Source of the DNA: Eledone cirrhosa
Taxonomy: Eukaryota
Length of the DNA: 64,000 bases
Reading direction: 5' to 3'
NCBI GenBank assembly: GCA_964016885.1
Contig: OZ024743.1
Coordinates: forward strand, 185,690,001-185,754,000
Shown here piece after piece: positions 23,596 to 49,667 of this stretch. Below the pieces are notes generated by a model. It was not told the origin of the DNA and made no database searches. It saw only the letters and a list, made by a program, of their open reading frames with translations. Position 1 is the first letter of the stretch; every line of letters begins with the position of its first letter. Both the position numbers and the translations under genes were made by a program.

Positions 23596-23943
23596 ATATA
23601 TATAATATGTATATATCTATATATATATATATATATATAATATGTATATATCTATATATATATATATATATGTATATATATATATATATATATATGTATA
23701 TATATATATATATATATGTATATATATATATATGTATATATGTATATATATATATATGTATATATATATATATATATAATATGTATATATATATATATAT
23801 ATATAATATGTATATATATATATATATATATAATATGTATATATATATATATATATAATATGTATATATATGTATATATATATATATATATATAAAATAA
23901 AGTTAAATAAAAGTCAAATGATTAAAATCTAGCTTCGTTTATT

Positions 23944-23998
23944 ACTGCTATATATATTTCAGTGACAGCCATCTTTGGCTGTGACCTCTTCAGGCAGT
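23944..23998 (-). ncRNA. Hammerhead, mirror copy
   Basis: Reverse complement of 24235-24289. Confidence 0.7.
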
Positions 23999-24234
23999 TT
24001 GAATTAGTATGGTATAGACAAGTACATATGTTGTTTAGGTGTATGATATTGTCAATACTCTGATATGCCCAGTTCCTTGTTGGGTTGTTAATTCACTGGG
24101 GAACTGGAGTCATATCAATATGACTCCAGTTCCCCAGTGAATTAACAACCCAACAAGGAACTGGGCATATCAGAGTATTGACAATATCATACACCTAAAC
24201 AACATATGTACTTGTCTATACGATACTAATTCAA

Positions 24235-24289
24235 ACTGCCTGAAGAGGTCACAGCCAAAGATGGCTGTCACTGAAATATATATAGCAGT
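24235..24289 (+). ncRNA. Type I hammerhead ribozyme
   Basis: actgc CTGAAGA ggtcacagcc aaagat ggctgtcact GAA atatatat A gcagt. Confidence 0.75.
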
Positions 24290-24445
24290 AATAAACGAAG
24301 CTAAATTTTAATCATTTGACTTTTATTTAACTTTATTTTACACTACTCCGGAGTAACCAAACCAACCTGCGCACTTCGTCGAGTGCTCCAGCCTGCATAC
24401 TGAGGTGTTGGTATACAACCAACATAAACTCAAAATCTCTCTCTC

Positions 24446-26490
24446 TATATATATATATATATAATATGTATATATATATATGTATGTATGTATATATATA
24501 TATAATATGTATATATATATAATATGTATATATATATATGGTATGTATGTATATATATATATAATATGTATATATATATAATATGTATATATATATATAT
24601 GTATGTATATATATATATAACATGTATATATATATATGATATGTATGTATATATATATATAACATGTATATATATATATATGTATGTATATATATATATA
24701 TGTATGTATATATATATATATAATATGTATATCTATATATGATATGTATATGTATATATATATATGATATGTATATGTATATATATATATGATATGTATA
24801 TGTATATATATATATGATATGTATGTATATATATATATATATATGATATGTATGTATATATATATATATGATATGTATGTATATATATATATATATGATA
24901 TGTATGTATATATATATATATGTATATATATATATGATATGTATGTATATATATATATATGATATGTATGTATATATATATATATATAATATGTATATAT
25001 ATATATGATATGTATGTATATATATATATGATATGTATGTATATATATAATATGTATATATATATATGATATGTATGTATATATATATATAATATGTATA
25101 TATATATATGATATGTATGTATATATATATATATGACATGTATATATATATATATGATATGTATGTATATATATATATATGATATGTATATATATATATA
25201 TTATATGTATGTATATATATATATATATATATGATATGTATATATATATATATATATGATATGTATATATATATATATGATATGTATGTATATATATATA
25301 TATATATAATATGTATATATATATATATGATATGTATGTATATATATATATAATATGTATATATATATGATATGTATGTATATATATATGATATGTATGT
25401 ATATATATATAATATGTATATATATATATATATAATATGTATATATATATATGATATGTATGTATAATATATATGTATATATATATATATATGTATGTAT
25501 AAATATATATGTATAAATATATATGTATATATATATAATATGTATATATATATATAATATGTATATATATATATATATATATATATGTATGTATATATAT
25601 ATGTATATAATATGTATATATATATATATATGATATGTATGTATATATATATAATATGTCTATATATATATATGATATGTATGTAAATATATATATATGT
25701 ATATATATATATATATATGTATATATATATATATATGTATATATATATATATATATGTATATAATATGTATATATATATATATGTATATAATATGTATAT
25801 ATATATATATGTATATATATATATATATGTATATATATATATATATATATATATATAATATGTATATGTATATATATATATATATATATATATATAATAT
25901 GTGTATATATATATGTATATATATATATATATATATATATAATATGTGTATATATATATATATATATATATATATATGTATATATGTATATATATATATA
26001 TATATATATATGTATATATGTATATATGTATATATATATATATATATATATGTATATATGTATATATATATATATATGTATATATGTATATATATATATA
26101 TGTATATATATATATATATATATATGTATATATATATATATATATATATATGTATATATGTATATATATATATATATATATATATATATATATATATATA
26201 TGTATATATGTATATGTATATGTATATATATATATGTATATATATGTATATGTATATATATGTATATGTATATATGTATATGTATATATATATATATATG
26301 TATATATATGTATATGTATATATGTATATGTATATATATATATGTATATGTATATGTATATATATATATGTATATGTATATATGTATATATATGTATATA
26401 TATATATGTATATATATGTATATATATATATATGTATATATATGTATGTATATGTATATATATGTATATATATATATATATATGTATATA
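24446..26490. repeat. About 2-kb degenerate (TA)n array with TAATATG / TGATATGTATG variant units
   Basis: Direct reading. Confidence 0.97.
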
Positions 26491-26578
26491 ATAAAAAATT
26501 GAACAGGGACAGAACAGAGAGGCAGTACGACAAATGTTTATTAGCTTCACGCTCAGGAGAGTGGGGGGTAGGTGGGGG

Positions 26579-26610
26579 ACGACGTTTCGGGCATAAGCCC
26601 TTCTTCGGGT
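26579..26610 (-). ncRNA. Minimal/degenerate hammerhead-like motif
   Basis: Minus: ac CCGAAGA a-gggc ttat gccc GAA acgt C gt; stem I only about 2 bp. Confidence 0.45.
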
Positions 26611-46518: not shown

Positions 46519-46771
46519 TTTCCTTGAGCAAGACACTTTATTTCACATTGCTCCAGTTTACTCAGCTGTAGAAATGAGATGATAGGGACTGGGGTCCATA
46601 TCATTCCACTGCAAAGTGGTCATGGAGGTGTGACGGCAAAAAAGCACCCAGCACTCACTGTAAATGAGGTTGGTGTTAGGAAGGGCATCCAGCTGTAGAA
46701 ATCAAGCCAGAATCAGTTCTCGTCCCTCCCTTGCAAGCAGGGAAAAGCGGACGTAAAGTGATGATGATGAT
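46519..46771 (+). mobile_element. 5'-truncated SINE: CORE-like segment + RTE-B UTR module + RTE-C tail
   Basis: ccttgagcaagacacttta...cagtttactcagctgtagaaatg resembles the MIR/CORE domain; ends ccttgcaagcagggaaaagcggacgtaaa(gat)n. Confidence 0.7.
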
Positions 46772-47118
46772 GTATATATATATATATAAATATGTATATA
46801 TTTATATATATAAATATGTATATATATATATATAAATATGTATATATATATATATATATATTAATATGTATATATATATAAATATGTATATATATATATA
46901 TATCAATATGTATATATATATAAATATGTATACATATATATATATATAAATATGTATACATATATATATATAAATATGTATATATATATAAATATGTATA
47001 TATATATATATATATATATATATAAATATGTATATATATATATAATATGTATATATATATATATATATATATAAATATGTATATATATATATAATATGTA
47101 TATATATATATATATATA

Positions 47119-48013
47119 CAGGGTGCAGATGACATCTGTTCGCAATTTTCAACTGCTAATTTTATGCCAATTTTTTTTTTTGCTTCCGTTGTCACTCTTG
47201 TCTTCATAAAAACAGTGACTATATTTCCATTATTTATTTTCAGAATAATTGATTATGAATAATTTTGAACCTCCAAATTTGTGGAAGAGACATGGAGTTC
47301 TTCTTGGAATCCACGCCGAGAGGACAAATAAGTAAATTTCAGACTTTCCCAGCATCAGCAGGAGAATGGTGTCTCATCCAAAGACGTGCCCAGAGTCATG
47401 CAGACAAAGATTCCAGCGACAACATCGGTCTTAGGTGTCGTCAGCAGTCAAGGTGACGTCATGCCACCTCACTTCTTCCCTGAGGGCCTCAAGCTGAACA
47501 CCGATGGCTACATCCGCGTTCTGAGTGAGGTAGTAAAGCCATGGATCGACCAGGTAGCTGCAGGTAGGCCGTACGTGTGGCAGCAAAACTCAGTGCCCTG
47601 CCATACCAGCCGAAAGACCCAAGCCTGGCTGTCAGAAAACTTTGTTGACCACACTTCACCTGACATCTGGCCTCCCAGCTCGCCTGACTGCAACCCCCTC
47701 GACTTCTTTGTGTGCGGCGCAGTGGAACGAGACACCAACAGATCTAGCTGCAATACGAAAGACGATCTGAAGGCCAGGATCACAAGTGCCTTTAGGGGCC
47801 TAAGTCGGGGGACAGTGACGAAGGCCTGTAGCCGGTTCCGAGGCCGCCTTGAGGCCATCATTAAAGCCAATGGCGGGTTTATCGAGTGAGATCGAAAGAA
47901 CCAGTCATGAAGACAAACTGACCCAAGTTTGATAAATATATCTTAAAAAATAAAACTACTGTCTTATTTTTTCCTAGACAGTAATCTTGTGAACAAATAT
48001 CATCCGCACCCTG
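47119..48013 (+). mobile_element. Internally deleted Tc1/mariner transposon, DD37D (maT) type
   Basis: Imperfect TIRs cagggtgcagatgacatctgttcgcaa / ttgtgaacaaatatcatccgcaccctg, TA flanks. Confidence 0.9.
47386..47889 (+). pseudogene. C-terminal half of DD37D transposase (second Asp mutated to Asn)
   Basis: WQQNSVPCH...WPPSSPDCNPLDF with 37 residues between the catalytic positions; ends IKANGGFIE. Confidence 0.88.
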
Positions 48014-48641
48014 TATATATGTGTATATATATATATATATATATATGTGTGTATATATATATATATATATATATATATATATATATATATATAATATGTA
48101 TATATATATAATATGTATATATATATATATATATATATATAATATGTATATATATATAATATGTATATATATATATATGTATACTTATCAAAGGTCAGCT
48201 AATGAAATAAAACCAGCAGGAGAGAATGTTTAGAACCGCGTTCCCAAACACCCTTATCTTGCAACCTCACCATTTTCTGAGTGTATATATGTGTGTGTGT
48301 GTGTATATGTATGCTTTAATTCCTCCAAATCTTCATCATCGTCAACACTCATTAACACCACACCCTACACACTTCCAAATCTCTCTTATATATATATAAT
48401 CACACATCTCAACACAACCTGATCTCAGTTTGACAATCGCCACAGACAAATGCGAGAAAGTTCTCCAACAAAAGTTAACCAGGAATCTTTAAAATTCTTT
48501 CCACCGAAGTTAACAAAGAACTTACTAGATTTACCAACTCATAATATTATAATAATATGAAGTCATTCTTTTACTTTTTTTCAAATATATATATATATAC
48601 AATATATTAATAAATGGAAACTATATTTATAAAACCATAAT

Positions 48642-48707
48642 TATTTTATTATATATATTTCAAGGGCGACCAAGGTAAATTATGGTGCGCTTTCATCAGA
48701 TAAAATA
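48642..48707 (-). ncRNA. Hammerhead, mirror copy
   Basis: Reverse complement of 48848-48913. Confidence 0.7.
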
Positions 48708-48847
48708 CAGATTCGTTTTATAAATAAATATTGACATACCCGGAAAAAAGACAACCTCAACGGTTGAAATTCGCTGGATAGTGAATTTCAACCGTTGAGG
48801 TTGTCTTTTTTCCGGGTATGTCAATATTTATTTATAAAACGAATCTG

Positions 48848-48913
48848 TATTTTATCTGATGAAAGCGCACCATAATTTACCTTGGTCGCCCTTGAAATAT
48901 ATATAATAAAATA
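48848..48913 (+). ncRNA. Type I hammerhead ribozyme, canonical core
   Basis: tattttat CTGATGA aagcgcacca...tggtcgccctt GAA atatatat A ataaaata. Confidence 0.75.
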
Positions 48914-49667
48914 ATTATGGTTTTATAAATATAGTTTCCATTTATTAATATATTGTATATTTACTCCACTAACTTGTTGAGTGCTTTATATCAGTTATAA
49001 AAGTTTTTAAGCTTGTTGAATCCCAACAAATTAAATATAACCTCTGCATATATATAAATATGTATATCTATATATATATCTATATATATGTAATATGGTA
49101 TATATATATATTACGCACTCTATTACCCACTCTACTACCTCAAGTATTGAGTACTTTGGTGCGTTATGGTCCACCTGGTTCCTTACCACATTTCCTTCGT
49201 TATATATATATATATATATATATATATATATATATATATATAGATACTATGTATATATATATATATATATATATATATATATATATAAATATAGATACTA
49301 TGTATATATATATAATATATATATATATATAATATATATATATATAATATGTATATATATATAATATATATATATATATAATATATAATATATATATAAT
49401 ATATAATATATATATAATATATAATATATATATATATATATAATATGTATATATATATAATATATATATATATAATATATATATATATAATATGTATATA
49501 TATATAATATGTATATATATATAATATATATATATATATAATATGTATATATATATAATATATATATATATATAATATATATATATATATAATATATATA
49601 TATATATAATATATATATATATATAATATGTATATATATATAATATGTATATATATATAATATGTAT

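What the first reader, a model, noticed from the sequence alone, without database searches (positions are those of the whole stretch)
23893..49048. Recurrent near-perfect fold-back palindromes with outward-facing hammerheads and one unpaired 3' tip
Seen: three unrelated families share one architecture (23893-24438, 29643-30223, 48595-49048). Arms are about 180-260 bp with a loop of 1-4 nt. The two copies are joined head to head, so the left arm has the ribozyme on minus and the right arm on plus. Only one arm keeps an extra 55-100-bp tip, and both ends abut TA. Shorter versions occur at 20409-20545 and 45928-46140. Established: Penelope insertions often carry an inverted partial pLTR at the 5' end. 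Inference: snap-back self-priming of the cDNA 3' end yields ORF-less hairpin inserts. Transcripts from either strand would form long dsRNA (potential ADAR or Dicer substrates) that also sequesters the ribozyme.
Basis: partly seen in the sequence, partly recalled or inferred. Interest (0 to 1): 0.75.

Follow-up and report, generated by a model that had tools for sequence, protein, structure and literature searches.

The report
Head-to-head Penelope ends, twice-copied RNA
The palindromes are real and are the known head-to-head ends of common Penelope-like jumping genes inserted in TA repeats; they were likely made when both ends of the cut DNA each copied the element's RNA from a different fixed start point back to its likely capped front end, so the outward-facing ribozymes are likely passengers.

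Summary
Palindromes, outward hammerhead motifs, one-sided tip and TA flanks are confirmed for three sites; the two short ones have no hammerhead in their arms. All belong to four high-copy Penelope-like families (310 to 24,502 exact motif hits); three were traced to protein-coding parents. The architecture is published (PMC3846280, PMC8557442, PMC4209133). One-cDNA snap-back does not explain it: the tip boundary is fixed per family, and in 124 curated pairs the tip-less arm is the longer in 49, the tipped arm in 22, and 53 are symmetric. Each family has one 5'-end hotspot, also in solo copies; 37 of 53 symmetric pairs sit on it, and in one family a foreign G precedes it in 10 of 24 ends against 4 of 61 elsewhere. 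Best reading: two cDNAs, primed on both target strands at the two internal start sites shown in vitro (PMC11167929), run off a capped transcription start and are joined by microhomology or short snap-back. Independent raw reads show strand-switch joints at the family hotspot. dsRNA, editing and Dicer use are untested. The scan reached this reading before on other DNA of this genome.

The parts
23893..24117 (-). Family A tip-less arm (pLTR of a Penelope-like element), including the 2-nt loop; the base before the hotspot is a foreign G in sense
24118..24340 (+). Family A tipped arm, starting at the family 5' hotspot (-322)
24341..24440 (+). Family A tail (about 100 nt; end merges into CT/TA repeat)
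23944..23998 (-). Type-I minimal hammerhead motif, family A left arm
24235..24289 (+). Type-I minimal hammerhead motif, family A right arm; palindromic loop 3; predicted cut after 24284
29643..29905 (-). Family B tip-less arm plus the 1-nt loop (5' end -321)
29906..30167 (+). Family B tipped arm (5' end -320)
30168..30227 (+). Family B tail, 60 nt; in tandem copies it encodes early codons of the RT-GIY-YIG ORF
29802..29846 (-). Hammerhead motif, family B left arm
29964..30008 (+). Hammerhead motif, family B right arm; predicted cut after 30003
48595..48782 (-). Family C tip-less arm plus the 10-nt loop, which is parent sequence of this arm (5' end -276)
48783..48960 (+). Family C tipped arm (5' end -265)
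48961..49051 (+). Family C tail, 91 nt (end merges into TA)
48642..48707 (-). Hammerhead motif, family C left arm
48848..48913 (+). Hammerhead motif, family C right arm; predicted cut after 48905
45924..46065 (-). Family B short insert: tail (45924-45983) and tipped arm, no hammerhead
46066..46141 (+). Family B short insert: tip-less arm; axis on a native AT-rich hairpin
20409..20470 (-). Family D broken left arm (-195..-256), fused to another Penelope-type ORF
20471..20483 (.). 13-nt joint insert that repeats the arm start with a G in place of the parent C
20484..20741 (+). Family D tipped arm from hotspot -257, hammerhead 20545-20615, 81-nt tail
20871..21128 (+). Second direct copy of the family D tipped arm, hammerhead at 20940

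Best explanation
The palindromes are head-to-head pairs of the hammerhead-bearing terminal repeat of protein-coding Penelope-like retrotransposons, likely made by twin priming: the enzyme likely cuts both strands of a TA repeat, each DNA end likely primes its own cDNA at one of two fixed internal start sites on the sense RNA, and the two cDNAs are likely joined at their 3' ends. One start site gives the arm with the tip (tail), the other the arm without. When priming happens at the repeat nearest the RNA's front end, both cDNAs run off the same transcription start, sometimes copying the cap as an extra G, and the insert is a near-perfect ORF-less palindrome of family-typical size. When one or both cDNAs stop elsewhere the arms are unequal. 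Joining uses blunt ends, 1-11 nt microhomology or a short snap-back that gives one cDNA a sense stretch able to pair with the other. Shown: anatomy, parents, fixed tail boundary, independent truncation, 5' hotspot, joint signatures. From the literature: two-strand cutting and extension, and two start sites bounding the tail, in another Penelope in vitro. Inferred: two cDNAs per insert, hotspot = capped transcription start, the joining route. The hammerheads point outwards simply because of this geometry.
For: Parents with RT and C-terminal GIY-YIG motifs for A (L184, L196), B (L031, L033) and C (L201) (Pfam RVT_1 only below cut-off, E 1e-3, for B, none for A or C). 3' ends are bimodal: B 76 at -60 and 66 at 0 of 155; A 25 at -100 and 36 at 0/-2/-4 of 76; C 35 at -91 and 33 at 0 of 83; D 47 at -81 and 51 at 0/-1 of 107. 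TA flank at 142/155, 66/76, 64/83, 98/107. 124 curated tipped/tip-less pairs: 53 symmetric (within 12 nt), 22 tipped longer, 49 tip-less longer; family B alone, least biased, 13/16/18 of 47. 5' hotspots hold 24/147 (B), 30/74 (A), 42/80 (C) of terminal arms and 31/107 (D, two adjacent bases), including solo copies; 37 of 53 symmetric pairs have both arms there. Foreign G before D -257: 10/24 against 4/61 elsewhere, Fisher p 3e-4; 7/21 and p 0.005 after removing a duplicate and two partner-derived cases. Untemplated G is read as a cap copy for L1 and SVA (PMC4859970 passages). Blunt joints without self-complementarity (29905, L036, L131, L208) cannot prime a snap-back. PAc cuts and extends both strands and starts at two sites bounding the tail (PMC11167929, parts 1-2 of 4). 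Raw RAD reads of three runs show opposite-strand joints at the B hotspot (L031 4934/4941: 9, 8, 1 reads; 4938/4941: 2, 8, 0).
Against: Symmetric pairs away from the hotspot are in excess (B 7 against 1.4 expected, p 1e-4; A 5 against 1.1, p 0.002; C 2 against 1.0, p 0.24), so fully independent truncation is not enough and snap-back with flap trimming, or one RNA copied twice, must contribute. Three joints break the one-tip rule: L091 tipped on both arms, L134 on neither, L288 on both with a diverged arm. The cap G is clear only in D; in A (2 of 11 arms at -322), C (3 of 4 at -275, one partner-derived) and B (masked by a subfamily variant) it is inconclusive. No RNA data place the transcription start. 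Arms of one insert are only slightly more alike than arms of different inserts (B 0.989 against 0.964, A 0.991/0.989, C 0.972/0.968; partner best in 24 of 66), so a single RNA molecule is not shown. PMC11167929 found no difference in start site between the two strands, so it does not explain the near-strict one-tip rule. A, C and D pairs were picked by patterns upstream of the tail and partly by short spacing, which inflates both symmetric and tip-less-longer counts.
Confidence: 0.72

Rival explanations
1. One tipped cDNA folds back at its 3' end, copies itself and is cut or stops at the tail boundary.
For: Hairpin inserts at joints (L088, L188, L212, L256); excess of symmetric pairs off the hotspot in A and B; axes on native hairpins (three C copies at -260/-260, 46062).
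Against: Tip-less arm longer in 49 of 124 pairs; tipped arms that end inside the tail (L078, L156, L160, L138, L282); the loop belongs to the tip-less arm in all three large window palindromes; blunt joints with no stem.
Confidence: 0.08
2. Self-priming on an antisense template makes the head-to-head repeat, as proposed in PMC3846280.
For: Published reading of the same architecture (passages); palindromic words at many joints.
Against: A foreign G at a fixed sense 5' end points to a capped sense template; unequal arms in 71 of 124 pairs; sense RNA works as template in vitro.
Confidence: 0.07
3. The hotspot is not a transcription start but a stop or resolution site (RT pause, self-complementary word, hairpin repair after insertion), with twin priming still giving the two arms.
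For: A and D hotspots lie on the self-complementary word CATATG, which favours annealing; a second cluster in B at -255..-264 lies at the hammerhead's 5' edge.
Against: The same ends occur in solo copies next to TA; B and C hotspots are not palindromic; extra G in D.
Confidence: 0.1
4. The palindromes are a separate MITE-like or palindromic-RNA family that spreads as a unit, or are assembly fold-back artefacts.
For: Family-typical sizes; a few identical joints recur (A -322/-322 in L181, L191, L192). The window's own joints were not checked in reads.
Against: Joints differ in loop and position between most copies; arms carry mismatches; the tail boundary is family-fixed; independent raw reads show strand-switch joints at the hotspot.
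Confidence: 0.03

Closest known systems
EN+ Penelope-like element insertion unit with inverted 5'-truncated pLTR and one-sided tail (PMC3846280, PMC8557442; passages read)
   Same: Head-to-head inverted pLTR, palindrome at the joint, tail on one end only, TA targets, C-terminal GIY-YIG parents.
   Different: Tails are 60-100 nt against the 30-40 nt described; many inserts lack all ORF sequence; the papers favour self-priming or endonuclease resolution, whereas these data favour two cDNAs.
PAc (Poseidon) in-vitro reaction (PMC11167929; parts 1-2 of 4 read)
   Same: Two fixed ends bounding the tail, AT-rich target; in family B the tail lies in the first ORF codons.
   Different: The paper's main text does not model the inverted arm; in A and D the tail lies upstream of the long ORF.
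Minimal hammerheads of PLEs, including dual motifs 100-700 bp apart on opposite strands in Schistosoma mansoni (PMC4209133; passages read)
   Same: Type-I core, short helix III with palindromic loop in A, C, D; opposite-strand pairs.
   Different: B's loop 3 is not palindromic; activity was not tested here.
L1 twin priming and cap-derived G (PMC4859970; passages read)
   Same: Second target strand primes a second cDNA; extra G at full-length 5' ends.
   Different: L1 arms cover different parts of the RNA and give an inversion; here both arms cover the same part from fixed internal starts and give a palindrome.
Non-LTR retrozymes (bioRxiv 10.64898/2026.07.22.740005; abstract and one term search)
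   Same: ORF-less hammerhead-bearing derivatives related to pLTRs.
   Different: Retrozymes are tandem head-to-tail arrays; these are head-to-head by-products with protein-coding parents of the same sequence.

Membership tests
EN+ Penelope-like elements | Parent ORF with RT and C-terminal GIY-YIG endonuclease | tested here: met
   A, B, C parents show the RT YxDD-type and YIG/YVG-type motifs by eye; Pfam gives RVT_1 below cut-off for B only and no GIY-YIG hit. D's tandem copy shows only an ORF start like A's.
EN+ Penelope-like elements | Partial tandem structure forming pLTRs | tested here: met
   B unit 4084 bp in L031; A repeats about 4.15 kb apart in L184, L196; D 3940 bp spacing.
EN+ Penelope-like elements | Optional tail at one end | tested here: met
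   Bimodal 3' ends in four families; length 60-100 nt, longer than described.
EN+ Penelope-like elements | Hammerhead motif in the pLTR | tested here: met
   Descriptor hits in A-D; not among the Rfam matches shown.
EN+ Penelope-like elements | Insertion in AT-rich or (TA)n targets | tested here: met
   370 of 421 3' ends flanked by TA.
EN+ Penelope-like elements | RT phylogeny placing each family in a named clade (Neptune, Hydra, Poseidon) | not tested
   B has a CX4CX2C linker as described for Neptune/Nematis; no tree was built.
Active hammerhead ribozyme | Self-cleavage | not testable with these tools
   Arms starting within 2 nt of the predicted cut: B 0/148, A 2/75 (both in L188), C 0/83.
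Non-LTR retrozymes | Head-to-tail tandem arrays of a short hammerhead unit | tested here: not met
   Short-range pairs are minus-then-plus; the one short direct pair (20484, 20871) is separated by TA.
MITE | Conserved unit with fixed terminal inverted repeats and inherited centre | tested here: not met
   Centre varies between copies, ends are asymmetric, parents encode RT.

The most novel reading that the evidence does not exclude
Penelope insertion is an obligate two-cDNA reaction with built-in asymmetry: one enzyme complex uses the tail-end start on one target strand and the tail-boundary start on the other, on capped sense RNA, and internal initiation near the RNA's front end mass-produces thousands of promoter-less palindromes per family. 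This would replace the published antisense self-priming model and explain the tail, the inverted pLTR and solo pLTR palindromes by one mechanism.
Probability: 0.55. Interest if true: 0.62.

Novelty: new member of a known kind. Interest (0 to 1): 0.42.

Why it matters
The structure itself is ordinary for Penelope-like elements. Its value is as a large natural data set: PMC8557442 names the formation of tandem/inverted repeats as unresolved, and the joints here give a specific, testable model (two start sites used one per strand, run-off at a capped start). The existing in-vitro system could test it directly. If read through, thousands of such inserts would be predicted to form 180-260 bp hairpins, but that is untested and not specific to hammerheads.

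Tried and rejected
DNA search of the own genome with the B arm found nothing because common words are skipped; exact patterns were used instead. The repeat finder was swamped by TA repeats. Rfam gave only miRNA-like hairpin matches below gathering score in the rows shown. Hammerhead-cleaved RNA as usual template: rejected, 2 of 306 arms start at the cut. Same-molecule test by arm identity: inconclusive. Symmetry permutation in D: 13 observed against 11.0 expected, p 0.15, i.e. explained by the hotspot alone. Promoter motifs near the hotspots (ETS-, NRF1- and YY1-like words in B, two CCAAT words in A, a CA step at A, C, D and some B starts) are seen, but the motif names are recalled; a paper search for them returned nothing, so they are not counted as evidence. 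Papers on Penelope twin priming: none relevant; the library lacks most subscription papers, and supplements of PMC11167929 (Fig. S2, File S1) were not read and may bear on novelty.
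Full report
Observation. A script scan found five non-microsatellite palindromes with arms over 60 nt in the window: A 23893-24340 (arm 223, loop 2), B 29643-30167 (262, 1), C 48595-48960 (178, 10; 4 with wobble pairs), D 20409-20546 (62) and E 45984-46141 (76). 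A type-I hammerhead descriptor passes 8 of 30 CTGANGA sites: both arms of A, B and C pointing outwards, and two family D copies. Rfam showed none in the best 150 of 173 rows. D and E have no hammerhead in their arms. E is family B with the tip on the left. D's left arm is broken and fused to an unrelated Penelope-type ORF.

What they are. Exact patterns have 8,997 and 24,502 (B), 3,951 (A), 310 (C) and 8,528 (D) hits in the 3.0-Gb genome, with 0 for backwards controls. [quoted passage not shown] B forms a 4084-bp tandem unit and its tip encodes early ORF codons. 3' ends are bimodal in all four families, at the tip end or at a fixed boundary 60, about 100, 91 and 81 nt inside, and 370 of 421 abut TA. 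This is the published PLE unit: inverted pLTR, joint palindrome and optional tail (PMC3846280, passages), tail on one end and TA targets (PMC8557442, passages), opposite-strand hammerhead pairs (PMC4209133, passages).

Testing snap-back. I curated by hand 124 head-to-head pairs with one tipped and one tip-less arm (B 47, A 24, C 26, D 27). Dropped before counting: three exceptions to the one-tip rule (L091, L134, L288), three inner joints with tips on both sides next to a tandem or other continuation (L166, L184, L235), window D, and about 16 loci with nested or internal inversions. In about five kept pairs (L104, L131, L142, L200, L219) one arm's outer end is broken and its type was assigned from its partner. 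Result: 53 symmetric within 12 nt, 22 tipped longer, 49 tip-less longer; B alone 13, 16, 18. A fold-back copy of one tipped cDNA cannot be longer than its template, and a copy of a tip-less cDNA cannot gain the tip, so two templating events are needed (inference). In window A, B and C the loop continues the tip-less arm. A, C and D samples are biased by the search pattern and by my choice of close pairs.

Why some are near-perfect. Each family has one 5'-end hotspot: B -310..-335 (24 of 147 terminal arms), A -312..-330 (30 of 74), C -258..-280 (42 of 80), D -257/-258 (31 of 107). It also ends solo copies. 37 of the 53 symmetric pairs have both arms there, including all three large window palindromes. 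In D a foreign G precedes -257 in 10 of 24 ends against 4 of 61 elsewhere (p 3e-4; 7 of 21, p 0.005, after removing doubtful cases). I looked for this after earlier finding e1-10352193 raised the cap idea. An untemplated G is taken as a cap copy in L1 and SVA (PMC4859970, passages). In A, B and C the signal is inconclusive. So the hotspot is likely the transcription start (inference; no RNA data). Symmetric pairs off the hotspot are still in excess in A and B, and several joints carry short hairpin or templated inserts, so snap-back likely helps to join the two cDNAs in a subset.

Mechanism. PMC11167929 (parts 1-2 of 4 read; supplements not read) shows that a Penelope protein cuts and extends both target strands and starts at two internal sites that bound the tail. 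Combined with the joints here, the likely route is: cut both strands of (TA)n; prime one cDNA at each start site; copy to the RNA 5' end or stop earlier; join the two 3' ends; fill in. That paper saw no strand difference in start use, so the near-strict one-tip rule is unexplained by it.

Artefact test. Raw RAD reads of three 2026 runs with the same species label as the best holder, laid on L031:4800-4990, show opposite-strand joints at the B hotspot (4934/4941 in 9, 8 and 1 reads; 4938/4941 in 2, 8 and 0) and at 4880/4885 (16, 0, 5). The first corresponds to the -321/-313 joint seen in assembled copies L046, L103 and L115. These support the class, not the window's own loci; library fold-back cannot be excluded read by read.

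Hammerhead specificity. In 400 kb of unselected DNA (40 stretches) there were 15 palindromes with arms of 40 nt or more after removing N runs and two TA-centred hits. None had a complete hammerhead by my descriptor; 7 had one arm at TA and a 79-186-nt extension on the other; three carry only the 3' half of a hammerhead-like core by eye. The descriptor may miss variants. Only 2 of 306 arms start at the predicted cut. Full inserts fold as one hairpin on either strand (-297 to -470 kcal/mol), which would disrupt the ribozyme fold, but transcription is not shown, and arms that start at the hotspot lack the upstream sequence.

Novelty. The architecture is in print. I found no paper proposing twin priming or cap run-off for Penelope in three searches (listings only), in a library that lacks most subscription papers. 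Earlier unreviewed notes of this scan give the same reading for other windows of this genome; they are not independent support. Verdict: new members of a known kind, with a useful mechanistic inference; interest 0.42.

Noticed in passing
window 49114-49201: A TA-flanked stretch that by eye matches the tail of a fifth family seen in L319 and L321, whose arms carry a hammerhead-like 3' half with a long helix; here apparently a tail-only insert.
   Followed up: partly
window 18827-20408, 36399-38552 (+), 28192-29664 (-): Three other Penelope-type ORFs; the second has an N-rich linker; palindrome B sits in a TA run at the upstream end of the third frame (RVT_1 below cut-off).
   Followed up: partly
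window 20742-20870: Between the two family D copies, short repeats of the arm start with G in place of the parent C are interleaved with TA, like repeated template jumps or a local duplication.
   Followed up: no
L188: Both arms begin exactly at the predicted hammerhead cut of family A, with a 13-nt templated insert; possibly a copy of self-cleaved RNA, but the search pattern began at that base.
   Followed up: partly
family B, -255 to -264: A second cluster of 5' ends at the 5' edge of the hammerhead core, suggesting an RT pause at the ribozyme fold.
   Followed up: no
L031:4974: Nearly all RAD reads begin here, at a GCATGC site upstream of the B hotspot, so reduced-representation libraries of this species are loaded with this repeat (about 110,000 of 12.5 million reads per run).
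   Followed up: no
window 1953-5124, 39673-42747 and other places: Many copies of LINE-type ORFs with endonuclease and RT motifs, broken by TA insertions (RTE-like, label recalled).
   Followed up: no
window 47332-47889: Transposase remnant with Tc1/mariner-like motifs (label recalled).
   Followed up: no
window 46400-46519: A further tipped family B fragment on minus with no tip-less partner next to it.
   Followed up: no
L299:8645-8948; L300 and L314 long inverted duplications: Palindromes of other kinds: a symmetric MITE-like unit, and inverted duplications that extend across TA into flanking DNA.
   Followed up: no
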